From Nanobdellota archaeon (GTDB lineage Archaea; Nanobdellota; Nanobdellia; Woesearchaeales; JAGLXL01): DNA of 52,922 nucleotides. Within the stretch, counting starts at the first letter, position 1; each line of letters opens with the position of its first letter. Location: positions 1-52,922 of the forward strand of contig JBHPDN010000004.1 of assembly GCA_042577865.1 (NCBI GenBank). The letters are read 5' to 3'. The notes beneath the pieces are model-generated. The model worked only from the letters and a program-made list of their open reading frames with translations, was not told the origin of the DNA and searched no databases. A program made the position numbers and the translations under genes. This document shows, in pieces, positions 440 to 27,979 of the stretch.

Positions 440-475
440 TTGATTATTGTTTAAATTAAGTAAAAAGAGGTGGAG

Positions 476-1414
476 ATGGTTAATCAGCAATTAATTGACT
501 ATATTAGGAGACAATTGGCTCAAGGTTACAATACTCAATCAGTAAGAGCCATGCTTCTGAGATCTGGTTATTTACCAGCTGATATTGCTGTGGCTTTTAA
601 TTATATTTCTGGACCAACTCCCCAACCAAAAAAGAAATTCAATTTTTTGATTATTGGTATTGTTTTAGTGGTTTTAGTGGTGGCAGCTGCTTTGTTTTTA
701 ATTTTCTTTTTCAGCGGCGAAGAAGAAGATTTAGTTAAAGAATTAAGGTTACAAATTACTTTGGATGAAAACCAATTTGAATCTGGTGAAACTATTTCTT
801 TTGACCTTAGAATTACAAATGCAGGCCAGCGCCAAGAATTTGATATAAGATTAGAAAGTGCAATTTTGGATGGGAGTGGAAGAGAACAGCAAATGGTTGA
901 ACAGGATTTGATTTTGAGGGAATCACAAATGACCTTGGCGGCGACTGAAGAGATTGTTATTCCTTCAGATTTATCTTCTGGAACTTATACTTTGAGAAGT
1001 GAAATTTTTTATGACAGCAAATCAGCAGAGAGCAAGAAGAGTTTTTTTATCATTGAAGATGATGTAGTGGTTGTTACTGATGTGGGTGTTGGTGATACAA
1101 CTCCTACTGTTGTAGTGCTTAGCATCACTGAGCTTGATTTGGAAAGAATTGAATCTATCAAAGAGATAGCTCAGTCTGATTGGGTCCAAGCAAAAGAATT
1201 TTGTCTTGCCAGATTAGAAAGTTCAGAGGCTAAAGATAGATGTTTACGAGAAATTGCTTTGGATTTAAACAATGCCCAACCTTGTGTGGACATATCTGAT
1301 GAAGGAGAAAAAGACACCTGTTTTTTTAATGTAGCTCGAGGTTTAGAAGATTATTCTCTTTGTGCTCAAATCAGCAAAACTGATTTAAGAAAAACCTGTG
1401 AAATGTTTGGGTAA
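476..1414 (+). CDS. Single-pass membrane protein with a cytoplasmic N-terminal helical domain and an extracellular domain ending in periodic Cys repeats
   Basis: The ORF is 470..1414. ATG 476 is preferred because the SD-like AGAGGTGG lies at 465-472. TM segment FNFLIIGIVLVVLVVAAALFLIFFF. The C-terminus carries alternating C-x11-C / C-x13-C spacing (CLARLESSEAKDRC, CLREIALDLNNAQPC, CVDISDEGEKDTC, CFFNVARGLEDYSLC, CAQISKTDLRKTC). Confidence 0.7.
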   Translation: MVNQQLIDYIRRQLAQGYNTQSVRAMLLRSGYLPADIAVAFNYISGPTPQPKKKFNFLIIGIVLVVLVVAAALFLIFFFSGEEEDLVKELRLQITLDENQFESGETISFDLRITNAGQRQEFDIRLESAILDGSGREQQMVEQDLILRESQMTLAATEEIVIPSDLSSGTYTLRSEIFYDSKSAESKKSFFIIEDDVVVVTDVGVGDTTPTVVVLSITELDLERIESIKEIAQSDWVQAKEFCLARLESSEAKDRCLREIALDLNNAQPCVDISDEGEKDTCFFNVARGLEDYSLCAQISKTDLRKTCEMFG

Positions 1415-1416
1415 GG

Positions 1417-1425
1417 TTTATAAAT
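1417..1425 (+). promoter_or_regulatory. Archaeal TATA box TTTATAAAT; centre about 29 nt upstream of ATG 1450 (leaderless or near-leaderless)
   Basis: Exact TTTATAAAT. The same 9-mer recurs at 5382, 7892 and 38459. Confidence 0.5.
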
Positions 1426-1449
1426 CAATAGTGGTTAATTAAACTAAAA

Positions 1450-4400
1450 ATGAAAAAGAGGTTGTTGGTGGTTTGGTTAGTAATTTGTTTATTCTTAGCT
1501 GTGGTTCTTGTTCAAGGAATTGATTTACAAGAACAATTAATGTGTGGGGGTCCTTGTCCATCATCAGGAGAGGCTCCAAGCCAAATTGTGGCTCCACCCT
1601 TCCAAGGTAGTTTTATTATTCCAAAACAGTGTAATACAAATTCACCTTCAGAATTACCTTCTTGGGTGGGTTGGACTGATTTGAGTGCCAACCAAACCTT
1701 ATGTGAAGCCTTTAATTTTGATTATGATATTGATATGTTGGGTGACCGGTGCTGTGCTAACCATCAATTAGGTGCTTTGGCCCAGAGAGTTGGGGGAACG
1801 GCCGATGCCTTTCTCTGCTGGTATGATGATGTTGCTGACGAATATGTTTGGTTGAATGCCAGAGACGAACCTTTTGACCCTAAAGAAATAGATTGTTTTG
1901 ACCAGGCTGGCTGGAATTATGGTTATGTTTCTAATACTGAACAATGGTTTAAATGTGATCCAAATGGGATTGGCAATGGAATCAGTTCGGCTGGTTTATT
2001 GAGATTGTATGATAGGGCTCAAGCATCTCAATTTATATGTGCTCAAATGCAAGATTCATATCAGTTTGTGGAGTGCTGTGATGATTCTTTTGGTGATGAA
2101 AGAGCATGTTCATCAAGCGACACCAATCTTCAGAGAAGCCCGGGGGACAGAATTAATTTGGTCTCTGACGGAACTTCCTTTACGATGATGGACATCATAG
2201 ATATTTTTCCAGACCCCCATAATGTTAAACTAATCCAGGCTAAGAATTGGCAAGGTATGTCTGAATTGGAAATTGTTTTTTGGATGGATAAAAGTTATGA
2301 TGTTTATATTAGATTGATGGGTGATGAAGGAATTGCTGGAGAAAGAGAACTTTTGTTCCAAGACAAACTGATTAATTATGTTGACAATGAAATTGGTATT
2401 GACCAACCAAGATGGATGCGAGCCACCATCCCAATTTACGAATGGAGATATGTGGACGGCTTTCAATTTTACTTTGAAACTTTGGATGAAAATCAAACTC
2501 CTAATAATGTTTTTATTGGCAAGGCTTTTTTGAAACCAACCCAACAATCGACGACAGATTTGAAATACTGTTCTGGTACAAGATATCATCCTGGTCGTGT
2601 GCCCAATTTATGGATTGATGATTTAGACAATAATGGTCTAGGCAATGAAGATTATGAACCAGCTGGTCAAGTAGCTTGTGATGAAAATGGTTATGACTGG
2701 ACAGGAACCCAATGTTGTGGAAATGACGGAAAGGAAACAATTATTGATGACAATGGGGCCTGTTTGGATGGTGTTTTTTTAGCTGATGGTGATACTATGG
2801 CTGAGGTCAGTTATTCGCTAGCTTACAATGAAGGTAAAACAGTTATGGCTCCTGAACCTTTGTCATATTCTTTAACTTTGTCCTGGACAGATTTTTATCA
2901 AAAAGAAGATGTGGTTTCTCAACCCAGGTGGAGCGATAAATGTCCATTACCCTTACCGACTTGGAGTAATCCATTCCCATCACCATTATATTGTTATGCT
3001 GGACAATTTCAAGGCGGTCCTTGGACTTTGAGCTGCCCTTCAGACCAACATATCACTGGATTTGATACTGATTTAGCTGGACTTTCCCAAACCAATTCCC
3101 GATGGCAAGCTTGCCTTTATCATGGTAGTGATAATGTGGTTGGTTGTGTTGGAAATGACCCTCCTGAAGGTTGGGTGGGAATGTTGTCTGGAGCAATTTG
3201 GGCTGTCTTTGGTTTCAGCTCCTTTAGTTTTGAAGATATTCAAGATCTCAAAAATCTAAGGTCTGATGATTTCGAATTTTTATTAGACTTATCTGGTGGC
3301 AGAGAGCCAATAGGATGGTTTGAGAGTATAGGTATTGATGTGGAGGGAGGAGTAGAATGGACTGATGATCTTTTAGATCTAATGTTAACTCATTCATCAT
3401 CTCCGAGAGGAGGTTATGTTTCATGGATGAGTTGGAATACGGGCATTTGGTCCTCCACTTCAACTCGCTGGAATGGTGATTTAATATTACATTGTGGAAA
3501 AGATGTATCTCAAACCAAACAAATTTCTGGAACAATTGATTTCACATCTCCAAGAAAGGTTGAAGTAAGCGAAATCATCGGAAGAGACTGGAAAATTGGA
3601 ACTTTAATTACAGTATCCCCTCCTGCTGACCCTAATGTCCAAGTTTATTTTAAAAGTAAGGGGTTGGGACAAGCCGACAGTCTAGAAACTTGGGATTTTA
3701 ATGATACTCTGATTATTAGAACTGATGTGGCAAATGATGAATCTGATACAAGAGAAGAACAAGATAATTTTGTTTTCAAATGTTTTGACAATGAGTGTTG
3801 GTTGCCTTTGGTGGGTGAGCCACCTTACACTGTGGAAAATTTACAACCTGATGATTATGATCTTTATTTTGTTGGCGGAACTGGCGAAGTTTTGATTGAC
3901 CAAAGAAAACAATTTGATGAAAAAGGAATCTTGCAAGCCAGAAGAGTCACTCAAAAATCAATCTATTCTAATGGTTCATTTTATGGATGTCAAATTAATG
4001 ACTCCAACTTAGTTGGTAGGGATTATTGCGATGCAGTGGGTGAAAGATTTTGTTCTTATGATGTGGGCTGGAGCAATGAAGACAGCGGCAGTTCTGTTGC
4101 TGCTGAGAGAAACATGACTAGTTTGGCGTCACCTGGAGCCAATGCTTCAGAAGAAGGTTATGTTGACCGCAATTGCTGTGCTCCTGAGGACTGCTGGAGT
4201 GGTCTTGAATGTGTGGGCAACATGAAATATGATGCTAATTTGCAGCCAATCAATGGTTATGCTTGTATTGATGGCGAATGGGAATTTTCACCTTTGTTGC
4301 ATACTTGGGATTGGTTAGGGACTGGTTATTGCGGCTACCAACAATGTTTAGTCAATGCTAATGGCAATCCTAATTTGAATAGTGACCCACAATCATTTTT

Positions 4401-5361
4401 TACAGAATATCCTGACAGGCCAAGATGTATTGTCAGTGAAGAATCTATTTTAGATAATTATTGTGCCAACGGCACTTGGGAAAGCCGGACCAAACAAGTT
4501 GCTTTAGAATTATTAAAATTAGTCAATAAAACCGGCGATTCAAATGATTATACCTTGCATTGTGATTATTACAATACTTCCTTGCCTTCAAGTATTTGGT
4601 CATCTACTGATTTCTTGAATTATGCAGAAGGAAGATTTGACAGCCAGCAAGGAGATGTTGTCTGTGACGGCCTAAGAGTTGGAGACCATTGCATCAATAA
4701 CTTTTGTGTTATGGCTTACAATCATCAAACTGAAGGAAGAAAAATCTTATTGGCAACTTCATCAAATGTACCAATCAACAGTTCATGGAGCATCTTGAAT
4801 TGGTTGTTCCCTGGTTTGGGCAGACAGAATTATTGTGATAGTCTTTCTGGTGACGGAACTTTCCAAAAATGCAGCAATGATGATAATGTTTGGTATGCTT
4901 TAGGTTTGAATTCGATTGTTTATACACAAGACGGTGTTGATATGGAAGGCCTGTCATTTTTTGATTACATCTTTATTTGGTTGAGAGATCCGATTCAAAA
5001 TATCATTGATTGGATTACTGGAGAAGAAAAACCAAACTATGTCCAAGAGAACTATGACTTTACAGAAAGAGTGGTTAAGTTCAATAGATTCTACAACCAG
5101 GCTAAGCCAGGAAAATACAGGGTGGCAGTAGTAGAAGAAGTAGGATTAAATCAAACAATCTTGGCCAGTTATTATAATTACACTGGTAATGTTTGTGATT
5201 ATGTCGGCAATTTAGCTAATGGTTTGAATATTGTTATGAATACAGCCAACAGCGGTGTCTTTTGCAACCAGACTGGCAATGACTATCGTGTGGTTATCAG
5301 TAATCCAAATGCTTTTGGTTTATGGGCCAGCCTGACCAATTATTTCCCGATTGCTGGTTAA
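1450..5361 (+). CDS. Giant secreted Cys/Trp-rich protein (1303 aa), family not recognised
   Basis: Sec-type signal MKKRLLVVWLVICLFLAVVLVQG and no later hydrophobic anchor. Recurrent CC dipeptides (RCCANH, ECCDD, QCCGNDG, NCCAPEDC) and many N-x-S/T sequons. A TATA at 1417-1425 lies about 29 nt upstream of the ATG. Confidence 0.85.
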   Translation: MKKRLLVVWLVICLFLAVVLVQGIDLQEQLMCGGPCPSSGEAPSQIVAPPFQGSFIIPKQCNTNSPSELPSWVGWTDLSANQTLCEAFNFDYDIDMLGDRCCANHQLGALAQRVGGTADAFLCWYDDVADEYVWLNARDEPFDPKEIDCFDQAGWNYGYVSNTEQWFKCDPNGIGNGISSAGLLRLYDRAQASQFICAQMQDSYQFVECCDDSFGDERACSSSDTNLQRSPGDRINLVSDGTSFTMMDIIDIFPDPHNVKLIQAKNWQGMSELEIVFWMDKSYDVYIRLMGDEGIAGERELLFQDKLINYVDNEIGIDQPRWMRATIPIYEWRYVDGFQFYFETLDENQTPNNVFIGKAFLKPTQQSTTDLKYCSGTRYHPGRVPNLWIDDLDNNGLGNEDYEPAGQVACDENGYDWTGTQCCGNDGKETIIDDNGACLDGVFLADGDTMAEVSYSLAYNEGKTVMAPEPLSYSLTLSWTDFYQKEDVVSQPRWSDKCPLPLPTWSNPFPSPLYCYAGQFQGGPWTLSCPSDQHITGFDTDLAGLSQTNSRWQACLYHGSDNVVGCVGNDPPEGWVGMLSGAIWAVFGFSSFSFEDIQDLKNLRSDDFEFLLDLSGGREPIGWFESIGIDVEGGVEWTDDLLDLMLTHSSSPRGGYVSWMSWNTGIWSSTSTRWNGDLILHCGKDVSQTKQISGTIDFTSPRKVEVSEIIGRDWKIGTLITVSPPADPNVQVYFKSKGLGQADSLETWDFNDTLIIRTDVANDESDTREEQDNFVFKCFDNECWLPLVGEPPYTVENLQPDDYDLYFVGGTGEVLIDQRKQFDEKGILQARRVTQKSIYSNGSFYGCQINDSNLVGRDYCDAVGERFCSYDVGWSNEDSGSSVAAERNMTSLASPGANASEEGYVDRNCCAPEDCWSGLECVGNMKYDANLQPINGYACIDGEWEFSPLLHTWDWLGTGYCGYQQCLVNANGNPNLNSDPQSFFTEYPDRPRCIVSEESILDNYCANGTWESRTKQVALELLKLVNKTGDSNDYTLHCDYYNTSLPSSIWSSTDFLNYAEGRFDSQQGDVVCDGLRVGDHCINNFCVMAYNHQTEGRKILLATSSNVPINSSWSILNWLFPGLGRQNYCDSLSGDGTFQKCSNDDNVWYALGLNSIVYTQDGVDMEGLSFFDYIFIWLRDPIQNIIDWITGEEKPNYVQENYDFTERVVKFNRFYNQAKPGKYRVAVVEEVGLNQTILASYYNYTGNVCDYVGNLANGLNIVMNTANSGVFCNQTGNDYRVVISNPNAFGLWASLTNYFPIAG

Positions 5362-5381
5362 TTAATATATTAACCAAAAAG

Positions 5382-5390
5382 TTTATAAAT
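5382..5390 (+). promoter_or_regulatory. TATA box TTTATAAAT; centre about 30 nt upstream of ATG 5416
   Basis: Exact repeat of the 9-mer in the intergenic region after the 1303-aa gene. Confidence 0.5.
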
Positions 5391-5415
5391 TCTTTTTTGT
5401 TTAATTCATTAACAG

Positions 5416-5664
5416 ATGGTTAAAAACGAGGAATTGGTTTTATTTTGGTATGATTTAACTTCTCTGAAAGCTTCTCAAAAAGTAAGATTTGTTTATACAT
5501 TAAAAGGAAGAAAAGGAGAAATAGGTCTGATAGAAAGGTTTGGTGGAGAATTTTTGGTCAATGGTTGTTTTATGCTGCCAATGGAAAAAGAAAGGGAAAT
5601 GAAAGATGTGTTTAAGTTTTGGAAAGTCAAATTCAAAAGTAAAAAGATTGTAGTTGTAAAATGA
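5416..5664 (+). CDS. Small cytoplasmic protein (82 aa), unknown function; beta-alpha-beta-beta-alpha-beta-like pattern
   Basis: A TATA at 5382-5390 lies about 30 nt upstream of the ATG. The stop overlaps the next start (ATGA at 5661-5664). No signal peptide or TM. The LVLFWYDL...KVRFVYTLKG...GCFMLP pattern is only loosely Cas2/VapD-like. Confidence 0.55.
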   Translation: MVKNEELVLFWYDLTSLKASQKVRFVYTLKGRKGEIGLIERFGGEFLVNGCFMLPMEKEREMKDVFKFWKVKFKSKKIVVVK

Positions 5665-7886
5665 AAAAAAGACACCGATTAAACAAGTTTAATCTGGCCT
5701 TTTATAAAAATAAAGGGGGCCAAATAACAATGTTTATTTTATTAGGAATAGTTGTTTTGATAATCTTTGTTTTCTTATTTTACTTAATCAGTTCTGGAAT
5801 AAGCCAGCGATTGGAAACTCAGAGGCAGCAAACTATAATTACTGCATTGGAAGCCAGTTCGATAGATTATTTGACTGGGGAGTGCGCTGTTGATGCCTTG
5901 AAATCTGGTTTGATTTTGATTGGGCAACAAGGCGGCTGGATTTATGAAGAGCAAGGTGGTTTCGACACACCTTTCTTGACTAATTTTAACGGTTCCAATA
6001 TCAGTTATGATGTGAGCTATAACGAGCAAGATCCTAAGGGAGTTAATTTGGCACCGGTTTATCCTTGTCCGCTGCTTTTTTTAACTGATGAACCACGTTT
6101 TTGTGAGTTCCCTTATTACAGCGGTCGGGTTAATTTTGGAAATAGATGGCTGCCTGATTTAGAAGGGGGAGGGGTTTTGACAATCAAAAGACAGCTTGAA
6201 AATTACATCCAAGATTATGTTCAAGACTGCACTGATTTTGAATCGTTAGTCCAGGAAGAAGGGTTAGCTGGTTATGACATTACTTGGGATGAGCCCCAGG
6301 TTCAGGTAATCTTTGGGTTAGATAATATTAGAGTAATTCTTGATTATCCTATCAATGTTATGATCGGAGATGAAGAACCAATTCACCATTTACTTGGTTT
6401 TAAAGCCAAAGAAGAAATAAATTTCCGAGGCATTTACAATTTAGTAAGAGAAGTTTTGGACAAAGATAATAATCTGGCTGATTTTGATATAAGTCAAAAC
6501 ATTTCCCAAGAAAATCTTTGGCGGGCTGGAGAAATGATTTTTGAAGAACACCGATTTGATAACGGAGATGTTTTTATTTTGGAAGACTCCACCACCCAAA
6601 TTTATGGAAATGATTATATCTTTCAATGGGCCAGACAAAACAGGCCGCCGGTTTTGTATTACATAGCCAATAATGCTTCTGAATTAGATCCTTATGATTT
6701 TTTAGTAATTGAAGGTGAAAAGATTGAGATGATTGCCGAGGGAGCAGACCCTGATGAAGATTTGATTAATTTTAGTTTTGACGGCGGTTCCTTGGGAAGT
6801 TTTGATGGCAATATTTTTGAAAAAAATTCAACCAATCTATCTCAGTGGCCAGCTTATAATGTAACAGTTGAAGTACATGATTGGGTTTGGACTGATGAGC
6901 AAAGAGTAAGACTGTTTGTAGATAGAGTTTTAGAACCAGCCTTTACAATTTACAGTTATCCTGAAATTGGAGATGGTTTTATTTCAGTTGAAGATCCTGT
7001 TTATTTGAATGCCAGTCCAACACTTAAATCCCTAGCGCCAAATACACCACACAGTTATTACTGGGAATATTGGGGGCCAGAGGTTGGAACTGGTTTGTTA
7101 GAATATTTTGAAATCGGGGCTGATTCAGAATGTATGGTGGTGCCTGGATTTGAAAATTGTTCTGTTGGAGATTTTGATATATTGAATATAAGGGGCCAGC
7201 ATTTTAATGAGTCTGGTGACACAACCATGTTTTTGACAGTAACTGCTCATTACAGTGACAGGGTTCAAGAGGTAAAAATCCAGAGAGATGTAACTGTCAA
7301 GGAATGTCTGCCTTTAAGAAGTTCCAGTCCTCCTTATCCATATAATATCACAGATCCGTTTTTGTCAGACCACAGTTGTTGCTTGGGAAATGTGGATCAA
7401 CCTCATACCTGGCAACTGGCCAATTCAAGCACAGTTTGTTACAGCCAGAGTGAAAACTGTACAGCGAATCATCCTAAAACAACCAAAGCCACCAATCGTC
7501 ATTGTGATGGTTTGAGAGGAAATACATGTACTGGTGATTTGGATGTAGTGAGCACTTGTGGTTATAATGATTGGACTAATTGTTTTAACATTAATGATAA
7601 TTGTGAAGGTCTTGGTGCTTACCAATATTCTGATGAAGATGAAGGTTGGTGTTATGGAGCAGAAGGCTGCGGCAGTTTCTGCACTCAAGAAGTTGTAGCT
7701 CCTGTGGGTATGAATGGAACTATTGCTTTGAGCCAATTAAACAGTAGTTTTGAATGTGGTTGTGATGTGGGTAATATGGACCAATATTGTGATGATGATT
7801 ATGATGGTGATTTTGAGAAACAATGTCAAAGGCATGGCGGACCTTTTACTTACTATTATAGTTGTGATGAGGTGAGCCAGAGTTAA
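5661..7886 (+). CDS. Prepilin-like N-terminus fused to a roughly 700-aa sequon-rich ectodomain with a Cys-rich C-terminal module (candidate large pilin-anchored adhesin)
   Basis: N-terminus ...FYKNKGG|QITMFILLGIVVLIIFVFLFYLI (charged, G|Q, hydrophobic helix). The C-terminal roughly 190 aa is packed with Cys (SCCLGN, CTGDLDVVSTCGYNDWTNC, CGCDVGNMDQYCDDDYDGD). There are many N-x-S/T sequons. Confidence 0.8.
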   Translation: MKKRHRLNKFNLAFYKNKGGQITMFILLGIVVLIIFVFLFYLISSGISQRLETQRQQTIITALEASSIDYLTGECAVDALKSGLILIGQQGGWIYEEQGGFDTPFLTNFNGSNISYDVSYNEQDPKGVNLAPVYPCPLLFLTDEPRFCEFPYYSGRVNFGNRWLPDLEGGGVLTIKRQLENYIQDYVQDCTDFESLVQEEGLAGYDITWDEPQVQVIFGLDNIRVILDYPINVMIGDEEPIHHLLGFKAKEEINFRGIYNLVREVLDKDNNLADFDISQNISQENLWRAGEMIFEEHRFDNGDVFILEDSTTQIYGNDYIFQWARQNRPPVLYYIANNASELDPYDFLVIEGEKIEMIAEGADPDEDLINFSFDGGSLGSFDGNIFEKNSTNLSQWPAYNVTVEVHDWVWTDEQRVRLFVDRVLEPAFTIYSYPEIGDGFISVEDPVYLNASPTLKSLAPNTPHSYYWEYWGPEVGTGLLEYFEIGADSECMVVPGFENCSVGDFDILNIRGQHFNESGDTTMFLTVTAHYSDRVQEVKIQRDVTVKECLPLRSSSPPYPYNITDPFLSDHSCCLGNVDQPHTWQLANSSTVCYSQSENCTANHPKTTKATNRHCDGLRGNTCTGDLDVVSTCGYNDWTNCFNINDNCEGLGAYQYSDEDEGWCYGAEGCGSFCTQEVVAPVGMNGTIALSQLNSSFECGCDVGNMDQYCDDDYDGDFEKQCQRHGGPFTYYYSCDEVSQS

Positions 7887-7891
7887 AAACA

Positions 7892-7900
7892 TTTATAAAT
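7892..7900 (+). promoter_or_regulatory. TATA box TTTATAAAT upstream of the giant surface-protein operon
   Basis: Exact 9-mer. It is too close to ATG 7906 (6 nt) and lies 37 nt from ATG 7933. Confidence 0.45.
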
Positions 7901-7932
7901 CAAAAATGGTTTTAAAAGGGAAGTACAAAAAA

Positions 7933-10900
7933 ATGGGAAAAAGAGAGGTGATTTGGTTATTAGTAGGAATATTTTTCTTAGTTTTAGCTAGTTCTGTTTT
8001 GGCCCAACAAGGTTGTTTTACAGAACCAACTTATACTTCTATTTGCACTCAAGTTACTAGAACCAACGCAACAAGCTGGTGCTCTAATTTATGTACAAAT
8101 AACCAAACTTGTTTGAACGATTGTTTAACCAAGTATTTCTTTGAAAATCATGACTGTAGTATCGGCGTCTGTTCAGCTAATGCTGGTTGGTGTACTGATG
8201 TGCCAGCGTGTGCTCAGGTTAATCGTCCAGCTGAATGTGTCGACCGAACCAGTTTTACTAATTCAAGTGTGCCATGTCAGACTGGTTGTTGTATTTTAAC
8301 TTCAGGAACAACTAACCAGTGTGGTTCTCCGGCCTGGCCATTAATGACTTATCAAGAATGTGTCAATAAACAAAACCTTTATTCTGGTTATAGGATTAGT
8401 GTCTTTGATACTTCAGTCACAAGTTCTGCTGCTTGCGCCCAAGTTTGCGGCCAAACAATCGGAGCTCCAGGCAGAATCTCTGGTTATGTGGTCAATTCTT
8501 CTGGAAATGGAATTGGTGGAGCATCTATTGAAGCCTTTTCCATTAAGACGACTTCTTTAGCCAATGGAAGTTATACTTTGACAGCTTTGCCGATTGGTAC
8601 AGCAATTGTCACAGGAACAGCCAATGGATATGGCCAAAGTGTTTCAAGTGTGACAGTTTCTACAGGAGCAACAACTAATCATAATATTACTTTGCCAGCA
8701 GCGAGTTCAGGAAGAATTCATGGTTTTGTAACTTCAGGAGGAAGTCCTCTTGGCGGGGCTTTGGTTTCAGTAAGTGGCGCTGATTATTCTCAAATTTCAA
8801 CTCAAGGTGATGGAAGTTATTCCTTAGATGCTTTGAATTTAGGAAGCTATACGGCCACAGCTTCAGCCAGTGGTTATGGGAGCAGTTCTCAGCAAGTAAG
8901 TTTGACAGATGATGCTATTGAGATTAATTTTAGTTTAAGTTTAAGCCAGCAAGCAACAATCACTGGTTTAATTTTGGATCAGTACAATAGAGCGGTGCCT
9001 TTGGCGACAGTTCGAATTACCGGACCATCGAATTATACTGCTTATACAAATCAAAATGGAGTTTATACCAAAATAGTTTTTGCTAATGATACTTCAACAT
9101 CATATTCTGTTTCTGCCACAAAGGGTGGTTATAACCAAAGTTCAATCCAGACAGTTTCTTTAATTAAAAATGATGTGAAAACGGTCAATCTTAACATGAC
9201 TAAACTGGCATTGGGAGCTTGTGCTGATCCCAATACTTTGCCAGTATCAAATTTCAATGTTAATCATTTACCTGGAGAAAAAGCCCTACAATTGACTTGG
9301 GCAAGCCCATGTCCTGAAGTGACTGGGTATTATATTAACAGAACCAGCGGTGGACAAGAAGTGGCTTTGGCTTATATTCCAGCGACTCAAGCTTTACAAT
9401 TCAAAGATACTGGTGTCAGCTGGAACACCACTTATACATACAAAATCCGGGCTTTTTTTGATGCAGCACCAAGATTCTCTAATACAACTAATACTAATTC
9501 AATCACAACCGGCGATGCTGCCTGTGAAGGTCCATTGAGATATAACAACGGCCAGTATCTTCAGTTTTGCCAAGGGCCATTTAACAGAAGAATTTGTAAT
9601 GCTAATAACAAAGTTGTTGAACCAACAGATGGGACAATAACCAATCCTGTCAACTGTACAGCTTTAGGTAATTTCCGTTTCTGTAGAGGTCCTGATAGTT
9701 TAGGCAAGACTTCCTGCAGTGATGCAACTCATTGTTTAACTAGTCCTGGTCCAGGAGGAGTTTGGGTAACCAGGAACAGTTGTTATGGAAGTAGTAGTGT
9801 GCCTTATCCAAATTACTGTTATTTTGAACCAAGTACGCCTTTTAACTTTTGTTATTCCTGCTCTGCTTTGCCAACTAAGTCTTGTTATGATTATGCTTCC
9901 AGCGATGCCTGCGGAACTAATAACTGTCTACCAGGCAAGAGCTGTACTTGGTGGGTCTCTCCATCAAATGTGGGTTATTGTTATGAGCCTGGTTATGCTG
10001 GAACTGATCAGTGCAGCAGGTGTCAAGTTGGTTGTACGCAAGATGTTTGTGATAAGTTAGGAGACTGTTATGCTAACAGTGCCAATACAGCCTGTTTACG
10101 GTGCAGTCTACCACCTCAGCCATGTGGTTCTTATACCACACCTCAAGAATGTGATGGCGGGCAAGCACCTACTTTTGTCAATGATGTTTTAGTTGCTTCC
10201 CAAGATAGGTGTGGTTATGAAAGGTGTCTTTATCAAAGTGGTTCCTGCGGCAAAGATGGAGATGGAGATGGCAACTTTGAATGCTTAGATCCAAATAAAG
10301 TTTCACCAGCAGAACAAAGTACATGTCAAAGAGACCGGACTCCACCTGTAACTAAGATTCTGCCTTTTGGTTTTATTTCTGTTAATAATGCGACAGGCAA
10401 TATTACTTTCCAAGGAAATGATTCATTTGGTATGCAGAAAGTTGTTTATTGTATTGATAAAACCAACACTTGTTCACCAAGTGCTTCTTTAAATTATCCT
10501 TCTGGTACTGGGGTGAAAACAGTTCAACTTAATTTGGCGACTGATAATCAATTAAGACAAGCACACAGTCAGCACGGTCCAGGAACTTATTATTTGAGAT
10601 TTTATTCCCTTGATAAATATTACAACAGAGAAAATGTTCAAAGCAGAACTCTTAATGTTGATTTGGATGCACCAGTCTTTACTTTGAAAAGCTGTAATGT
10701 TTTAACTAATGCAACTTCTGGTTCAACGATACGCTGCCAGATAGCCACTTCTGAAATGGTGACTTGCAGTGACAGATTAGATACTTATAATGTGGTTTCT
10801 GGATTTACTCCATATGGAGCTTTCCCAAACCAGAGAACTAATTCAGAAATTATTGATTATACTGGCCTGCCAGACGCTCTTTACAAATATGAAATCAATT

Positions 10901-14659: not shown

Positions 14660-14660
14660 A

Positions 14661-15734: not shown

Positions 15735-15736
15735 AA

Positions 15737-16679: not shown

Positions 16680-16801
16680 ATAAAAAAGGTGATGCTTGGA
16701 TCTTGAATATCGGTTGGTTAAAATTATTGATTTTTGCTATTTTTTTGGCCATCTTGATTTTTGTTGTTTTTTTTGTGGTGTTGCCTAAATTCACAGGTTA
16801 A
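16676..16801 (+). CDS. Mini prepilin-like ORF (41 aa), not in the ORF track
   Basis: Hand translation: MNKKG|DAWILNIGWLKLLIFAIFLAILIFVVFFVVLPKFTG*. ATGA overlap with the upstream stop (16676-16679). The next gene starts 5 nt after its stop. Confidence 0.5.
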   Translation: MNKKGDAWILNIGWLKLLIFAIFLAILIFVVFFVVLPKFTG

Positions 16802-16805
16802 TCAA

Positions 16806-17414
16806 ATGAAAAAAGGAGGGATAAGAACATTTTTGGTGGGAGTAATCATTGTTGCTATTGTGGGAGTGGTTTTAGCCATCTTTTTAGTAAATCTTAGATC
16901 TACCTTTGGAGAAAGCCAGTGGCTGGCCAGCTGTGAAGTGAGTGTCAGGGCTTACAGACAGGTTGGTCCGATGGCTAAAATTTATTGTCCAGTTTTGAGT
17001 TGGGAAGTTAAAGAAGATTTGAATTCTAATGAAGCTAAAGAAGAAGTACTGGAAAAAATGAAAACATGTTATGATTTGTATGTTGAAGAAGAAGCTCTTT
17101 TCGAAGAAGGTTTAAGCTGTGCTCCTTGTTACAATCTGACTTTTAGTGGAAAAGGTGAGATGAATAATCTAAAAGAATTTATCACAAATAGTACCGACAG
17201 TGAAATTTTGGGTTTGAAGCGTTCTGGATTTGGAGAAAATGTTGTTAAATTATCAAGTTTGGACCAGATAGAAAAAAATATTAAAACAGGTAAACAATAT
17301 TATGTAATATATGCCGAAGCTGATGATACTTTAGGAGCAGCTTGGGGGGTTTTTTTGATGGAAAAGGAGAAAGCTAGGAATCTATGCTTTTTTCCAGTGG
17401 AGGGTGCTCAATGA
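16806..17414 (+). CDS. Prepilin-like protein, 202 aa; paralogue of 17544..18398
   Basis: ATG 16806 gives MKKG|GIRTFLVGVIIVAIVGVVLAIFLV. It shares the Cys pattern SC...CP...C...C-x2-C-x3-TF with the 17544 product. Confidence 0.65.
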   Translation: MKKGGIRTFLVGVIIVAIVGVVLAIFLVNLRSTFGESQWLASCEVSVRAYRQVGPMAKIYCPVLSWEVKEDLNSNEAKEEVLEKMKTCYDLYVEEEALFEEGLSCAPCYNLTFSGKGEMNNLKEFITNSTDSEILGLKRSGFGENVVKLSSLDQIEKNIKTGKQYYVIYAEADDTLGAAWGVFLMEKEKARNLCFFPVEGAQ

Positions 17415-25474: not shown

Positions 25475-25496
25475 GCCCAAGACTATTTCTTTAAAT

Positions 25497-26345
25497 ATGG
25501 AAAAAAGAGGTCAATTAGCATTAGGATATTTGATAATTTCTGTTTTGTTAATTGGTGTGGCCTTGATTTTCTTTGTGACTTATGCCAAAAATATTAAAGA
25601 AGATACCTTGTTAGAAAAAACCTATTTTTCCCGAGATGTGGCTTTAGTTACTAATGCAGTTTATGCTTCTCCAGGCAATCTTTTTGTCAATTACAGTTCT
25701 TTAGCGATTTATGCTGATTTCTCTGTTCTACCAAATAAAGCATCAGCTGAACTTTTGAATTTTGAATTTGGGAATCAGAAAGTAATAGTTGTTGAAGATG
25801 ACGGAAAACAAAAAATAAGTTATCCCTATGCAGATGATTTTTTTTCTGGAAATTTATCGGGATATTTTGAAAAACCAAGTGATCTGTTTTTTGTCAGCGA
25901 TGGCCCAAACACCATGTTAGTTGAGAAAAAAACTGAGTTGGGAAAATGGAAATACCCTCAGATTGAAACCAAAGATGAAATCTGGCGGACCAGAAATTTT
26001 ATGATTGGACCAGAAGGAAACGACTTGGCTAATTATTTTTTGAATCAAGGGCTGCCATTCAAATCATATTATTCTGAACCAGACATTTATTTATGGATTG
26101 AAGAAGGAGAAAGCAATGAAGTAACGGCAACTATTTCCTATCAAACAGCAGCCAAAAGCAGAAAACTGGCTACTTTGATCATCAATAAAGTTTTAGAAAA
26201 TAAACCTAATGCTTACACTTGGATTAATGTAACTGATTCATCCCAATTAAAGGCTAAAGAAGCAGGAGTGGTTTTAAGAATTGGTTCAGGATTGATTAAA
26301 AAATTAGAATTGGAAGAAATTTTTGAGGAATACTATGAAGAATAA
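25497..26345 (+). CDS. Prepilin-like protein, 282 aa
   Basis: MEKRG|QLALGYLIISVLLIGVALIFFVTY. A TATA-like ATATTTAAATA at 25464-25474 lies about 28 nt upstream. Confidence 0.7.
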   Translation: MEKRGQLALGYLIISVLLIGVALIFFVTYAKNIKEDTLLEKTYFSRDVALVTNAVYASPGNLFVNYSSLAIYADFSVLPNKASAELLNFEFGNQKVIVVEDDGKQKISYPYADDFFSGNLSGYFEKPSDLFFVSDGPNTMLVEKKTELGKWKYPQIETKDEIWRTRNFMIGPEGNDLANYFLNQGLPFKSYYSEPDIYLWIEEGESNEVTATISYQTAAKSRKLATLIINKVLENKPNAYTWINVTDSSQLKAKEAGVVLRIGSGLIKKLELEEIFEEYYEE

Positions 26346-26982
26346 AAAGGGCGATGCTTATCCGCAAATAATCTGGATATTGAGAATTATCTTTTGGATT
26401 ATTGTAATCATTGCTGTTTATGGGATAACATCTTACTTGATTGATGTTAAATTCCAGCCCTGGCAGGCTGAAGCAGATGGTTTTGCTTTGAGGACGCTTT
26501 ATTCACCCAATGGTATAAGTTATTTTGATCCTTTGGCTGGGAAAGTTCAGCCTGGAACCATCGATTTGGCTCGATTTAAGAGTGGGATTTGGGAAGAATC
26601 GGTTTATTATGGTGAGGAACATTTGGCAGCAAAAATGACTTTATGGAATAAAGGAGCAGATGACTGGCAAGCAGTTGCTTTAACAGGAGAAAAACTATTG
26701 GAGAGATATTATCAAAAAGATTTGTTTAACAAATGGGAAGATTTGAGTGATAAAAAGGTTGCCAAATTTACAAGAAAATATTATGTTTTGATTAAAGACG
26801 AAGGAGAACTTGAAATCTTCGAAGGAGAAAAAGATCTGGAGAAAGACATCGAAGATCATGGGGAGAAAGTTTATTTGATAGAAAAATCTAAAGAACATCT
26901 AGAAAAAATCAAAGAAGAAGCTAAAGATGACAATGCCCTGGTACCTGGGCTTTTAGAAATAGAAATAATTATTAAAAAATGA
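26335..26982 (+). CDS. Prepilin-like protein, 215 aa
   Basis: ATG 26335 gives MKNKKG|DAYPQIIWILRIIFWIIVIIAVYG. It overlaps the upstream gene by 11 nt. Confidence 0.65.
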   Translation: MKNKKGDAYPQIIWILRIIFWIIVIIAVYGITSYLIDVKFQPWQAEADGFALRTLYSPNGISYFDPLAGKVQPGTIDLARFKSGIWEESVYYGEEHLAAKMTLWNKGADDWQAVALTGEKLLERYYQKDLFNKWEDLSDKKVAKFTRKYYVLIKDEGELEIFEGEKDLEKDIEDHGEKVYLIEKSKEHLEKIKEEAKDDNALVPGLLEIEIIIKK

Positions 26983-27587
26983 AATCAAAAAAAGGACAAG
27001 GTGGATTTTTCCAGATGCCAAGTGCGGCACCGATGTTTTTAGCTTTTGCTGGTTTTATTTTAATTGTAGTACTTTTTTTGGTCGTAGCCTGGGCTCTTAA
27101 GGAAACTAATTTATCTCTCAGAGGAAATGTGCCAAGTGTAGATTATGAAGAAGCAAGAGCTCAAATGGCCTTGATAAATTTTTTGAAAACTCCTGCCCAA
27201 CCATATATTTTTTTGGAAGGTGGTAGGGCGAATAGAACTGTCGCTGATTTGATAATAAAGGCTATGGAAAGAGAACAATTTGATGAAAAATGTATCATCA
27301 GAGGAGATCCTAGAACAAGAACATTAAGAGATGATTTTGACTCTTGTTCAACAGCCTTGCAATCGGAAGCAGTGAGAGCATTTAATGAACTTTACAGGTT
27401 TGAAGGAGAATTGCTAAATGAATCTTACTGGGGTTTTACTGTTCATTCTGATAACCCCAAACAACCTGTAATTGAAATTACCAGTGGTCAGAGAGAAGGT
27501 ACTCCTTACAGTGTTTCCCAACTTTTGCCAATTCCAGGATCTGATAAGTTAGCTAATGTCACTTTAACGGTGAATGTAAGAAAATGA
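26979..27587 (+). CDS. Prepilin-like protein, 202 aa
   Basis: MKSKKG|QGGFFQMPSAAPMFLAFAGFILIVVLFLVVAWA. ATGA overlap with the upstream stop. Confidence 0.65.
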   Translation: MKSKKGQGGFFQMPSAAPMFLAFAGFILIVVLFLVVAWALKETNLSLRGNVPSVDYEEARAQMALINFLKTPAQPYIFLEGGRANRTVADLIIKAMEREQFDEKCIIRGDPRTRTLRDDFDSCSTALQSEAVRAFNELYRFEGELLNESYWGFTVHSDNPKQPVIEITSGQREGTPYSVSQLLPIPGSDKLANVTLTVNVRK

Positions 27588-27979
27588 AATCAAAAAAAGG
27601 ATATGTATTCAGTGTATTGATGGTGATTATAGCTACAATAGTGCTGGCTGCAATTTTGATGCACATCATCCATAAAGAAGGAGCATTTAACAGGGATTTT
27701 GGTGACAGGGCAAAGGACTTATTCTTAGCTTATCAAGATATTGAGAAAGATATTTTTTATGCTGAACAAGCAGCTAAGTTAGCTAATTGTAATAAAGAAA
27801 ATTTTACCAAGCTTTTGGAAAACCACGATCTTTTGAAGAACCAATCCATCTTTGATTACGAATTGTTGCTGGTGAATAAAACTTGCATTGGTTTGACTCG
27901 TGGGGTGATAGATTATACTTTGGAAAAGACAACCCGTTACGAAATCAGACCAAGTTTTAGTGTCAAATTAAACAAATAA
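27584..27979 (+). CDS. Prepilin-like protein, 131 aa
   Basis: MKSKKG|YVFSVLMVIIATIVLAAILMHII. ATGA overlap with the upstream stop. Confidence 0.65.
   Translation: MKSKKGYVFSVLMVIIATIVLAAILMHIIHKEGAFNRDFGDRAKDLFLAYQDIEKDIFYAEQAAKLANCNKENFTKLLENHDLLKNQSIFDYELLLVNKTCIGLTRGVIDYTLEKTTRYEIRPSFSVKLNK

What the first reader, a model, noticed from the sequence alone, without database searches (positions are those of the whole stretch)
470..27979. About 27 kb surface mega-locus: at least 17 prepilin-like genes wired to three giant Cys-rich exoproteins, with no recognisable pilus motor in the window
Seen directly: 17 products (plus one atypical) start with a short K/R-rich segment, then G or A, then a roughly 20-residue hydrophobic helix. 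The starts are at 5661, 14087, 14661, 15737, 16200, 16676, 16806, 17411, 18401, 22544, 24297, 24762, 25013, 25497, 26335, 26979 and 27584. Ten of these carry [KR]-[GA]|Q. That junction matches the Q(+1) junction described for EppA-processed (DUF361-type) euryarchaeal pilins, so this link is established knowledge. The genes are packed into operons by ATGA or short overlaps. They are interleaved with a 1303-aa secreted Cys-rich protein, a 741-aa pilin-anchored Cys-rich protein, a roughly 2055-aa TM-anchored multidomain protein, a TolB-like propeller and two TPR proteins. Inference: this resembles an enlarged version of a minor-pilin plus tip-adhesin (PilY1-like) priming complex, or of a type II secretion pseudopilus. 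It would be dedicated to displaying or exporting giant adhesins, which is plausible for a host-dependent DPANN-type archaeon. I do not recognise this gene order, the Cys-rich modules or the number of pilin paralogues as any described archaeal pilus (archaellum, Aap, Ups, Epd, bindosome).
Basis: partly seen in the sequence, partly recalled or inferred. Interest (0 to 1): 0.9.

Follow-up and report, generated by a model that had tools for sequence, protein, structure and literature searches.

The report
Conserved prepilin-like gene cluster of Woesearchaeota
A small DPANN (Woesearchaeota-type) archaeon packs about 18 prepilin-like genes and three giant cysteine-rich surface proteins into one cluster; the same unannotated cluster occurs in hundreds of related species and is a good candidate for their attachment apparatus, although the motor that would assemble it was not found.

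Summary
All 17 listed starts encode a short K/R-rich segment, then G/A, then a roughly 20-residue hydrophobic segment. Eight carry strict [KR][GA]Q and two are near-misses.

The window is a whole 52.9-kb contig of a Woesearchaeota-type archaeon. It contains no pilus ATPase, platform protein or A24 peptidase.

The cluster is not a one-off:
- Its 357-aa marker protein has relatives in 213 GTDB species genomes and 2,109 protein clusters at 50% identity.
- The gene order is conserved: large secreted or class-III proteins, a roughly 2,100-aa membrane-anchored giant, four conserved Q(+1) prepilin-like genes, tandem small pilin-like genes, tiny helix-only ORFs, about 8-10 further class-III genes, then RPA and YdjM.
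- No motor gene lies within 10 kb in about 170 related loci.

Predicted structures show 44-50-residue N-terminal helices. The head domains match no solved pilin, and no Pfam or NCBIfam pilin model fits.

Best reading (about 0.55): this is the subunit module of an Epd/Tad-like type IV filament, assembled by machinery encoded elsewhere, with giant surface proteins and enzyme-bearing class-III proteins. I rate it a new variant of a known kind. Whether a motor and peptidase exist in these genomes remains the key untested point.

The parts
1450..5361 (+). 1303-aa secreted Cys-rich protein (47 Cys, 14 N-glycosylation sequons) with a Sec-type signal peptide
   Evidence: Translation. No Pfam or PDB relative. 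TTTATAAAT box at 1417. blastp relatives in 11 loci; it mostly lies beyond the 10-kb flank.
5416..5664 (+). 82-aa protein with no TM segment; its stop overlaps the start of the next gene by 4 nt
   Evidence: Relatives in 3 loci. TTTATAAAT at 5382. No Pfam hit.
5661..7886 (+). 741-aa class-III-anchored protein (KNKGGQ, then hydrophobic helix) with a Cys-rich C-terminal third; candidate modular pilin or adhesin
   Evidence: Relatives upstream of the giant in 26 loci. No Pfam or PDB hit.
7906..14100 (+). Giant membrane-anchored surface protein of 2064 aa (probably 2055 aa from the ATG at 7933). Order of features: signal peptide, Cys-rich region, CarboxypepD_reg Ig-like domains, further beta-rich modules, D-rich TSP3-like Ca-binding repeats, TM segment near residues 1865-1893, then a roughly 170-aa Lys/Pro-rich cytoplasmic tail
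   Evidence: Pfam CarboxypepD_reg 2e-31. Sequence. Family found in 63-66 of 84 loci, directly upstream of the quartet. Its stop overlaps the next start by 14 nt. TATA-like box at 7892.
14087..14659 (+). Core prepilin-like gene 1 (190 aa, KKA|Q)
   Evidence: Family in 57 loci.
14661..15734 (+). Core prepilin-like gene 2 (357 aa, KKG|Q); marker family of the cluster
   Evidence: Relatives in 213 GTDB species genomes and 2,109 clusters at 50% identity. AF2 model pLDDT 83.9 with helix 8-58 plus a novel alpha/beta head. No PDB fold match.
15737..16216 (+). Core prepilin-like gene 3 (159 aa, KKG|Q)
   Evidence: Family in 78 loci; +1 is Q in 55 of 60 members; N-terminus more conserved than the rest (0.55 vs 0.35 identity).
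16200..16679 (+). Core prepilin-like gene 4 (159 aa, RKG|QMEII)
   Evidence: Family in 75 loci; +1 is Q in 54 of 60 members. All relatives are unnamed hypotheticals.
16676..16801 (+). Tiny helix-only class-III ORF (41 aa, KKG|D)
   Evidence: ORFs of this kind number 68 in 44 of 82 loci, against 1 of 110 minus-strand control ORFs.
16806..17414 (+). 202-aa class-III-like protein (KKG|G)
   Evidence: Poorly conserved: 1 locus.
17411..17542 (+). Tiny helix-only ORF (43 aa, KYG|Q)
17544..18398 (+). 284-aa N-terminally anchored protein (the 'atypical' one; no K/R-G motif)
   Evidence: Relatives in 4 loci, for example L080:14224-15228, which does carry KKG.
18401..20302 (+). 633-aa class-III-anchored TPR protein with a Cys-rich C-terminus; part of a lineage-specific insertion
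   Evidence: TPR_6 8e-8. No relatives in 84 loci.
20303..22435 (-). 710-aa PD40/TolB-like beta-propeller protein with a twin-arginine-like SRRKFLVG N-terminus; opposite strand; insertion
   Evidence: PD40 1.8e-8. Sequence. Only L006 has a counterpart, at the same position.
22544..24226 (+). 560-aa class-III-like protein with weak TPR signal; insertion
   Evidence: No relatives in the loci.
24297..24689 (+). Small pilin-like protein (130 aa, KRG|QGLSLTTIIIAAIAIIVLVVL); best major-subunit candidate
   Evidence: 88 relatives. N-terminal 30 residues are near-invariant, Q+1 is invariant, and the 4-Cys head is variable. AF2 pLDDT 81.8 with helix 9-52. Own TATA box and an oligo-T tract after the stop. 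Present in 1-4 tandem copies in relatives.
24762..25016 (+). Second small pilin-like protein (84 aa, KRG|Q, 6 Cys), paralogue of 24297
   Evidence: blastp 44% identity to g24297, E 6e-10. Relatives in 25 loci.
25013..25471 (+). 152-aa class-III-like protein (KKG|F, 8 Cys)
25497..26345 (+). 282-aa class-III protein (KRG|Q) with a degenerate Amidase_3-like C-terminal half
   Evidence: Homologues L039:17638-18651 and L085:5428-6384 score 49.4 and 39.1 bits on Amidase_3 (cutoff 27). The window copy lacks the Zn-ligand His residues and about 50 residues.
26335..26982 (+). 215-aa class-III-like protein (KKG|D)
   Evidence: Relatives in 9 loci.
26979..27587 (+). 202-aa class-III-like protein (KKG|Q)
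27584..27979 (+). 131-aa class-III-like protein (KKG|Y); last gene before RPA
   Evidence: RPA then YdjM follow, as they do in every relative that reaches that far.
470..1414 (+). 314-aa bitopic membrane protein placed at the start of the finding; not shown to belong to the cluster
   Evidence: No relatives in 84 loci. No Pfam family.

Best explanation
The region 1450-27979 is the subunit module of a type IV filament (pilus or pseudopilus) system that is conserved across Woesearchaeota-type DPANN archaea.

Shown:
- About 18 co-oriented, mostly overlapping genes encode proteins with archaeal class-III-signal-like N-termini.
- Five families form a conserved core: 14087, 14661, 15737, 16200 and the small 24297/24762 type. 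They carry the [KR][GA]|Q junction typical of EppA-type substrates.
- The small family has a near-invariant hydrophobic helix and a variable head.
- Tiny 41-51-aa helix-only ORFs recur across relatives.
- A roughly 2,100-aa membrane-anchored giant is translationally coupled to the first core gene.

Inferred:
- An A24-family prepilin peptidase encoded elsewhere removes the short K/R leader.
- A secretion ATPase and TadC/FlaJ-type platform encoded in trans polymerise the small subunits through their N-terminal helices.
- The four conserved larger proteins act as low-abundance (minor) subunits that start or cap the fibre.
- The variable downstream class-III proteins, some carrying enzyme domains such as a peptidoglycan amidase in relatives, and the 741-aa class-III protein are displayed on or beside the fibre.
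- The giant Cys-rich, heavily sequon-bearing proteins provide envelope anchoring or adhesion at the contact with a partner cell.
For: - N-terminal motif at all 17 starts.
- Unbiased statistic over 82 loci: G/A/S follows the last K/R in 72% of 760 proteins, and Q comes next in 38%.
- Controls: 1 of 81 and 1 of 110.
- Q(+1) in more than 90% of the 15737 and 16200 families, with N-termini more conserved than the rest. Q(+1) is invariant in the small family, together with a near-invariant H-domain. H. volcanii PilA1-6 major pilins show the same pattern (PMC4371748).
- Junctions match those of the Epd pilins (PMC4371748).
- AF2 models have 44-50-residue N-terminal helices followed by a compact head.
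- Helix-only mini-ORFs resemble EpdE/Flp-type subunits (preprint 10.64898/2026.04.22.720090).
- Synteny is conserved in more than 80 genomes and 213 species. The marker family has 2,109 clusters at 50% identity.
- The small pilin gene has its own TATA box and an oligo-T tract after its stop.
- Pilins encoded away from ATPase/TadC modules are established for archaea (PMC4858521).
- T4P machinery is reported in Nanoarchaeota and other DPANN (PMC6142677, PMC8561730).
Against: - No ATPase, platform or A24 peptidase in the window, within 10 kb of the marker gene in 88 loci, or within 10 kb of small-pilin genes in 80 metagenome loci.
- One preprint states that T4P components are missing in DPANN (10.1101/2020.05.14.094862).
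- No Pfam or NCBIfam pilin model matches any member.
- The predicted head domains match no solved pilin, pseudopilin or archaellin.
- The +5 Glu of EppA substrates is not conserved.
- The downstream families have poorly conserved N-termini and a variable +1 residue, so they may be mere membrane anchors.
- There are no expression or processing data.
Confidence: 0.55

Rival explanations
1. Bindosome-like or pseudopilus-like surface platform. The class-III proteins are processed but form only a short, cell-bound assembly. That assembly holds enzymes, binding proteins and the giant proteins at the surface, rather than forming a long adhesive pilus.
For: - Most of the roughly 18 proteins have sizeable, unrelated globular domains.
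- Some relatives carry an intact Amidase_3 domain on a class-III anchor.
- TPR-bearing class-III proteins occur in the window.
- Functionalised class-III substrate-binding proteins are proposed to be widespread in archaea (preprint 10.64898/2026.04.22.720090).
- The giant has its own C-terminal membrane anchor.
Against: - The small family's near-invariant helix and the helix-only mini-ORFs look like polymerising subunits.
- The Sulfolobus bindosome also needs an ATPase and platform (BasEF), which were not found here either.
Confidence: 0.2
2. Plain signal anchors. The N-termini are uncleaved type II membrane anchors. The cluster encodes an envelope or S-layer-associated complex of Woesearchaeota built around the giant protein, with no type IV filament machinery involved.
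For: - No motor or peptidase in about 170 loci.
- No sequence or fold similarity to known pilins.
- The giant has an S-layer-like architecture, and a glycosylation island (AglB and many glycosyltransferases) lies nearby.
- A published statement says DPANN lack T4P parts (10.1101/2020.05.14.094862).
Against: - A simple anchor does not explain the conserved [KR][GA] followed by Q, with 72% G/A/S and 38% Q over 760 proteins.
- It does not explain the invariant Q+1 across 41 small-family members.
- It does not explain ORFs of 41-51 aa that consist of nothing but leader plus helix.
- T4P genes are reported in several DPANN lineages (PMC6142677, PMC8561730).
Confidence: 0.2
3. Chance or annotation artefact. 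The motif arises from low-GC codon bias (K-rich starts, hydrophobic AT-rich codons), and the small ORFs are not genes.
For: The window has 30-40% GC, which favours Lys, Ile and Phe codons.
Against: - Controls in the same sequence give 1 of 81 and 1 of 110 positives.
- Orthologues at 30-55% identity keep the motif and the gene order in more than 80 genomes.
Confidence: 0.01

Closest known systems
Epd pilus / archaeal TFF 'system 1' (clade 1) of Methanococcus, Methanobacteriales, Thermococcales and some DPANN
   Same: - The [KR][GA]|Q processing junction is identical in form to EpdA-E (RAQI, KGQV, KGQL, KGQI).
- Many (five or more) minor class-III proteins in one operon.
- Very small major subunits that lack a globular head, present as several paralogues.
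- Complexity comparable to bacterial T4P and T2SS (PMC4371748, PMC4858521, preprint 10.64898/2026.04.22.720090).
   Different: - No EppA, clade-1 ATPase or paired TadC genes in or near the cluster.
- +5 Glu is not conserved.
- No sequence match to Pfam or NCBIfam class-III or pilin models.
- Roughly three times more class-III genes in one cluster.
- Giant (1,300-2,300 aa) Cys-rich surface proteins are integral to the locus.
- Fixed position next to RPA and YdjM.
Haloferax volcanii PilA1-6 adhesion pilins with PilB3/PilC3 encoded in trans, and euryarchaeal clade-2 pilin loci with an S-layer-like protein
   Same: - Pilin genes lie away from the ATPase/platform module.
- Paralogous small pilins share an almost invariant H-domain.
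- A large S-layer-like protein is associated with the pilin set (PMC4858521, PMC4371748).
   Different: - Different junction: PibD-type [DR]A|VS there, against KG|Q here.
- No detectable homology.
- H. volcanii pilins are scattered, whereas here they form one long operon-like array.
Bacterial minor-pilin tip complexes (GspH-I-J-K; FimU-PilVWX-PilY1; ComGD-G)
   Same: Four conserved, co-transcribed pilin-like proteins of unequal size, one of them large (357 aa, compared with GspK at about 325 aa). They lie beside a small abundant-looking subunit and large putative adhesins.
   Different: - The analogy rests on gene arrangement only.
- The AF2 model of the 357-aa protein has no Foldseek match to GspK or any pseudopilin (best E 0.011, TM below 0.21).
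- No PilY1-type domain was detected by Pfam.
- Archaea have no secretin or outer membrane.
Sulfolobus bindosome (class-III-signal sugar-binding proteins assembled by BasEF)
   Same: Functional, non-pilin globular proteins carried on class-III N-termini. An Amidase_3-bearing member occurs in relatives of the window.
   Different: - No substrate-binding-protein domains.
- No Bas genes.
- Core families with Q+1 and helix-only subunits have no bindosome counterpart.

Membership tests
Archaeal class III signal peptide / type IV pilin-like proteins (FlaFind-type definition) | Short positively charged leader ending in [KR][GA], with a permitted +1 residue | tested here: met
   All 17 starts. Conserved in orthologues. 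72% G/A/S after the last K/R in 760 proteins. Two +1 residues (G at 16806, Y at 27584) are, from my recollection of the FlaFind rule (I did not check it here), outside the permitted +1 set.
Archaeal class III signal peptide / type IV pilin-like proteins (FlaFind-type definition) | Uncharged hydrophobic H-domain of about 20 residues directly after the junction, retained in the mature protein | tested here: met
   AF2 places it at the start of a continuous 44-50-residue helix.
Archaeal class III signal peptide / type IV pilin-like proteins (FlaFind-type definition) | Cleavage by an A24-family prepilin peptidase (PibD, FlaK or EppA) | not testable with these tools
   No peptidase in the window or the flanks of related loci. 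No proteomic data. Whole genomes of relatives could not be read.
Archaeal class III signal peptide / type IV pilin-like proteins (FlaFind-type definition) | Match to curated pilin or class-III sequence models in Pfam or NCBIfam | tested here: not met
   No such family for any cluster protein. Among 41 small-family members, only one weak Flp1_like hit, E 0.032.
Archaeal class III signal peptide / type IV pilin-like proteins (FlaFind-type definition) | Pilin fold: long N-terminal alpha-1 helix plus a globular head resembling solved pilins or archaellins | tested here: inconclusive
   The long alpha-1 helix is present (helix 8-58, pLDDT 83.9; helix 9-52, pLDDT 81.8). The heads have no significant Foldseek or sequence match in the PDB.
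Epd / TFF system 1 (EppA-dependent pili) | Gln at +1, required by EppA | tested here: met
   8 strict and 2 near cases of 17 in the window. More than 90% in the 15737 and 16200 families. Invariant in the small family. Not met by the downstream variable families.
Epd / TFF system 1 (EppA-dependent pili) | Glu at +5 of the mature protein | tested here: not met
   Mature N-termini read QISIGF, QGLSLT, QTIGQV and QLALGY. Only 16200 (QMEII, E at +3) and 15737 (E at +6) have a nearby Glu.
Epd / TFF system 1 (EppA-dependent pili) | Dedicated 9-TM peptidase EppA, clade-1 ATPase and two TadC-like platform genes in the locus or genome | tested here: not met
   Absent from the window and from 10-kb flanks in 88 plus 80 related loci. 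Presence elsewhere in the genome could not be tested.
Epd / TFF system 1 (EppA-dependent pili) | Small head-less major pilins in several paralogues | tested here: met
   41- and 43-aa ORFs in the window. 68 such ORFs in 44 of 82 loci. Tandem 85-130-aa small pilin-like genes. This is resemblance only; homology to arCOG06620 was not tested.
Bacterial minor-pilin / PilY1 or T2SS pseudopilus tip complex | Structural homology of the minor subunits to GspH/I/J/K or FimU/PilVWX | tested here: not met
   Foldseek of the 357-aa model against the PDB gave no pilin or pseudopilin hit.
Bacterial minor-pilin / PilY1 or T2SS pseudopilus tip complex | PilY1-type beta-propeller adhesin | not tested
   Pfam and PDB sequence searches of the 1303-aa and 741-aa proteins are empty. 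No structure prediction was available for them.

The most novel reading that the evidence does not exclude
Woesearchaeota-type archaea carry a previously undescribed, lineage-wide surface organelle derived from type IV filament subunits. A short fibre of Q(+1) pilin-like proteins would be physically coupled to a roughly 2,000-aa membrane-anchored giant. It would be armed with class-III-anchored effectors, including peptidoglycan amidases in some species, which would point to bacterial rather than archaeal partners. It would be assembled either by an unrecognised motor or without a canonical secretion ATPase.
Probability: 0.15. Interest if true: 0.85.

Novelty: new variant of a known kind. Interest (0 to 1): 0.62.

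Why it matters
No cultivated representative of the Woesearchaeota was mentioned in any of the papers read here, although they are among the most widespread DPANN archaea. How they contact partner cells was not addressed in those papers, and one preprint even states that DPANN lack type IV pilus parts.

This cluster is present in at least 213 species-level genomes. Its marker family has more than 2,000 clusters at 50% identity. It occupies 20-27 kb in genomes that, from general knowledge of DPANN, are only about 1-1.5 Mb (the one size seen here is a 1.56-Mb contig), and every product is annotated 'hypothetical'.

It therefore gives concrete targets for metaproteomics, antibody or cryo-ET labelling, and heterologous assembly:
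- a candidate major subunit;
- a conserved set of four larger subunits;
- giant surface proteins;
- pilin-anchored enzymes.

The amidase-bearing members offer a testable clue to the nature of the host. If the motor proves absent from complete genomes, the cluster would become a much more unusual case of class-III proteins used without a filament machine.

Tried and rejected
- Exact look-ups of window proteins in the assembly index returned nothing. The window is its own whole contig, so no further contig sequence exists to search.
- Pfam on every ORF of the window and NCBIfam on ten prepilin-like proteins found no pilin, ATPase, platform or peptidase family.
- Pfam on 41 small-family members gave only transmembrane noise.
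- PDB sequence searches with the small-family profile and the three giants were empty.
- Foldseek of both AF2 models against the PDB gave no significant match.
- All-against-all blastp within the cluster matched only N-termini, apart from the 24297/24762 pair. The 'paralogues' are therefore not recent duplicates.
- Motif scans for T2SE-type ATPases in 88 and then 80 related loci (about 2.2 Mb) found only RadA, MinD-like, ORC-like and ABC P-loops.
- I followed low-coverage small-pilin hits hoping to land next to a motor. Three were the same cluster. One was a different context with a giant cell-wall hydrolase.
- Six literature searches found no description of this cluster.
- I considered fetching a bacterial or archaeal ATPase as a query to look for Woesearchaeota motors. 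I rejected this because the capped tools would return only close relatives of the query and cannot be restricted to a genome.
- An iterative HMM search from 25497 drifted into the 16200 family through the shared N-terminus, so I used only its top hits.

Full report
**What is in the window.** The 52,922-bp window has low GC (0.29-0.41) and no tRNA genes, and it is archaeal. It encodes an RNase P p30 fragment, RPA, RadA, RadB, archaeal S2, a TRAM protein, an STT3/AglB oligosaccharyltransferase and a long run of glycosyltransferases and sugar-modifying enzymes. The protein database records the window's own proteins on a single contig of 52,922 bp. The window is therefore the whole contig. The closest named relatives are 'Candidatus Woesearchaeota' or 'Nanoarchaeota' MAGs, which belong to DPANN/Nanobdellati.

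**Check of the observation.** Every one of the 17 listed starts gives the described N-terminus.
- Strict [KR][GA]Q is present at eight starts: 14087, 14661, 15737, 16200, 24297, 24762, 25497 and 26979.
- Starts 5661 (KGGQ) and 17411 (KYGQ) are near-misses.
- The remaining +1 residues are D, G, L, M, F and Y.
- From 5416 to 20302 and from 24762 to 27979 the genes overlap by 4-17 nt or lie 1-25 nt apart. Larger gaps (70-108 nt) occur only before 22544, 24297 and 24762.
- A lenient detector scored 1 of 81 non-annotated ORFs of the same window.
- The three large proteins are as described, with 47, 24 and 82 cysteines and 14, 16 and 42 N-X-S/T sequons.
- The 2064-aa protein has CarboxypepD_reg domains (2e-31), D-rich Ca-binding-type repeats, a C-terminal TM segment and a roughly 170-residue Lys-rich cytoplasmic tail.
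- A TATA-like TTTATAAAT at 7892 lies only 14 nt from the ATG at 7906.
- No T2SE ATPase, T2SF/TadC/FlaJ platform or A24 peptidase family appears in any ORF of the window.

**The cluster is conserved, not idiosyncratic.**
- The 357-aa protein (14661) has 16 relatives in the word-indexed search.
- It has relatives in 213 GTDB species genomes.
- With a profile and no word index, it has 2,109 clusters at 50% identity (1,040 at E<=1e-30), nearly all full-length proteins of 320-400 aa.
- Gene tables and DNA of relatives show the same order:
  1. A large secreted protein.
  2. Often a class-III-anchored large protein.
  3. A 1,700-2,700-aa giant with CarboxypepD_reg, Big or TSP3 domains.
  4. The four families 14087, 14661, 15737 and 16200.
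  5. One to four small (85-130 aa) pilin-like genes.
  6. One or two ORFs of 41-55 aa.
  7. About eight to ten further class-III-like genes.
  8. RPA and YdjM, exactly as at 28033 and 29036 in the window.
- Clustering of 1,235 neighbour proteins gave at least 13 recurrent families. Nearly all have the class-III-like N-terminus, and none is an ATPase or a peptidase.
- The giant is present upstream in 39 of 49 loci that have enough upstream sequence. Between the first core gene and RPA there are 10-14 class-III-like genes in 8.3-9.8 kb.
- In the window that distance is 13.4 kb. The extra genes are 16806-24226, which include the two TPR proteins and the minus-strand TolB-like gene. These have almost no counterparts elsewhere, so they are a lineage-specific insertion.

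**Is the N-terminal motif a processing site or just an anchor?** I aligned 760 proteins from 82 loci on the last K/R before their N-terminal hydrophobic segment, without requiring any following residue.
- The next residue is G (279), A (193) or S (77). The one after that is Q in 286.
- In the 15737 and 16200 families Q(+1) is kept in more than 90% of members. The first 25 mature residues are more conserved than the rest of the protein (0.55 vs 0.35 and 0.49 vs 0.32).
- In the small 24297 family, Q+1 and the segment QGLSLTTIIIAAIALIVLVVLIAIFTG are invariant or nearly so across 41 sequences. The 4-Cys head varies freely.
- ORFs of 38-60 aa that consist only of leader, helix and a short tail occur 68 times in 44 of 82 loci on the coding strand. 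The minus-strand control gives 1 of 110.
- These features are what a prepilin peptidase site and a polymerising alpha-1 helix predict. A plain signal anchor does not explain them.
- By contrast, the downstream families (309, 222, 162, 142 and 386 aa) have poorly conserved N-termini and a variable +1 residue. They could be passengers rather than fibre subunits.

**Structures and family searches.**
- AF2 with natural alignments gave confident models.
  - The 357-aa protein has pLDDT 83.9 and pTM 0.79, with a helix at 8-58, an alpha/beta head and a disulfide-rich helical C-terminal part.
  - The 130-aa protein has pLDDT 81.8, with a helix at 9-52 and a small helical head.
- Neither head has a significant Foldseek match in the PDB. 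The best values are E 0.011 with TM below 0.21, and E 2.4.
- Profile and sequence searches against PDB chains, Pfam and NCBIfam find no pilin family.
- All database relatives are unnamed hypotheticals.
- 'Pilin-like' therefore rests on the N-terminal architecture and its conservation pattern, not on homology of the globular parts.

**Further anatomy.**
- The small pilin gene 24297 has its own TTTATATA box and SD-like GAGGTG, and an oligo-T tract after its stop. Gene 24762 has a TTTAAATA box. This fits separately and strongly expressed subunits, but it is inference.
- TTTATAAAT occurs at only four places in the window, each just upstream of a start: 1450, 5416, 7906/7933 and 38504. This suggests separate promoters for the giants, with the 2,055-aa gene co-transcribed with the core genes, since its stop overlaps 14087 by 14 nt.
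- The 282-aa class-III protein (25497) belongs to a family whose members in L039 and L085 carry an Amidase_3 (N-acetylmuramoyl-L-alanine amidase) domain above the Pfam cutoff, with the GHG and H Zn-ligand motifs. The window copy has lost these residues and about 50 residues.
- In another metagenome contig, a small pilin-like gene directly precedes a 1,897-aa protein with Amidase_3, polysaccharide deacetylase and VanY domains.

**The motor.**
- No T2SE-type ATPase was found in 88 loci around the marker gene.
- None was found in 80 metagenome loci (835 kb) around small-pilin genes.
- No platform or peptidase family recurs among the neighbours.
Presence of a motor elsewhere is therefore untested.
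- The literature cuts both ways.
  - Makarova et al. 2016 show that archaeal ATPase/TadC modules often serve pilins encoded in trans, and that S-layer-like proteins accompany pilin sets (PMC4858521).
  - T4P genes are reported in Nanoarchaeota and other DPANN (PMC6142677, PMC8561730).
  - TFF 'system 1' (Epd) is reported in some DPANN (preprint 10.64898/2026.04.22.720090).
  - Against this, He et al. state that T4P components are missing in DPANN (10.1101/2020.05.14.094862).

**Most likely mechanism (confidence about 0.55).** This is the subunit module of an Epd/Tad-like type IV filament.
- The conserved motif, the gene order and the helix architecture are shown.
- Leader removal by an A24 peptidase is inferred.
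- Polymerisation of the small or helix-only subunits by a trans-encoded ATPase and platform is inferred.
- A minor-subunit role for the four core proteins is inferred.
- Display of the variable class-III proteins is inferred.
- An anchoring or adhesive role for the giant Cys-rich glycoproteins is inferred.
- Rivals are a short bindosome-like or pseudopilus-like platform (0.2) and uncleaved signal anchors of an envelope or S-layer complex (0.2). Chance is excluded.

**Comparison with known systems.**
- The closest is the Epd/system-1 pilus. It has the same KG|Q junctions (PMC4371748), many minor class-III proteins and tiny head-less major subunits.
- Membership fails on three tested points: no EppA, clade-1 ATPase or paired TadC in or near the locus; no conserved +5 Glu; and no sequence-model match.
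- The arrangement also recalls H. volcanii PilA1-6, which have an invariant H-domain and a motor in trans, and bacterial minor-pilin quartets. There is no fold or sequence support for either.

**Novelty and score.**
- Class-III proteins in archaea, pilin loci without motors, and genome-wide counts of 16-47 such proteins are all known.
- The following appear undescribed in six literature searches:
  - one fixed, 20-27-kb, lineage-wide array of about 15-18 such genes, integrated with giant surface proteins;
  - families that are all unannotated and structurally unmatched;
  - enzyme-bearing members.
- I rate it a new variant of a known kind, with interest 0.62. The deciding experiment is a motor and peptidase census in complete genomes that carry the cluster.

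Noticed in passing
window 25497-26345; L039:17638-18651; L085:5428-6384: One class-III-anchored family carries an Amidase_3 (N-acetylmuramoyl-L-alanine amidase) domain with intact Zn-ligand motifs in two relatives. The window copy is degenerate: the His ligands are replaced and about 50 residues are deleted. A peptidoglycan amidase in an archaeon hints at bacterial partners or prey.
   Followed up: partly
L089:10001-16054: In a 107-kb metagenome contig, a small pilin-like gene with the same near-invariant N-terminus directly precedes a 1,897-aa secreted protein with Amidase_3, Polysacc_deac_2 and VanY domains. This is a different genomic context, next to a ribosomal protein operon.
   Followed up: no
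window 38504-41785: The AglB/STT3 oligosaccharyltransferase (1093 aa) is fused at its C-terminus to a PPIC-type peptidyl-prolyl isomerase domain (Rotamase_3, 4.5e-30). It also has a roughly 200-residue acidic/Lys-rich N-terminal extension. TTTATAAAT lies at 38459, just upstream.
   Followed up: no
window 37206-37910: A 234-aa N-terminally anchored protein has a thioredoxin-like region (weak TraF hit) and a CSDC motif. It is a plausible extracytoplasmic disulfide oxidoreductase, which could serve the many Cys-rich exoproteins next door.
   Followed up: partly
window 28000-52922: Downstream of the cluster lies a glycosylation island at lower GC (0.29-0.33, against 0.35-0.41 in the cluster). It holds four GT2 genes, a PMT_2 mannosyltransferase, DegT aminotransferase, hexapeptide acetyltransferase, GFO/IDH/MocA oxidoreductase, a methyltransferase, GtrA-like and DUF2304 proteins, a CDP-glycerol transferase-like protein and two unassigned roughly 480-aa multi-pass membrane proteins. 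The giants carry 14-42 N-glycosylation sequons.
   Followed up: no
window 1417, 5382, 7892, 38459: TTTATAAAT occurs at four places only, each 14-45 nt upstream of a start codon. It is a likely archaeal TATA box with short or absent leaders. The total count is not above chance (6 strand-matches against 3.6 expected), but all sites are intergenic.
   Followed up: partly
L087:9273-9854; L003:20002-20289; L004:17838-18125: Toxin-antitoxin genes are inserted inside or at the edge of the cluster in some relatives: a PIN plus MazE-like pair on the opposite strand, and MazE-like genes at the end.
   Followed up: no
loci L009-L079 (record titles): Many GTDB representative MAGs that carry this Woesearchaeota-type cluster are deposited as 'uncultured Methanosarcinales archaeon' (binchicken and SRP co-assemblies). 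The shared synteny suggests these labels are wrong.
   Followed up: no
window 5416-5664: An 82-aa protein with no TM segment (motif KVRFVYTLKGRKG) overlaps the start of the 741-aa class-III gene by 4 nt. Similar small proteins occur at the same place in three relatives (for example L012:110-403). No family was assigned.
   Followed up: no
window 20303-22435 (-): The TolB-like propeller protein has a twin-arginine-like motif (SRRKFLVGLATVTAGL) about 55 residues from its annotated start. This suggests either Tat export or a start codon further downstream.
   Followed up: no
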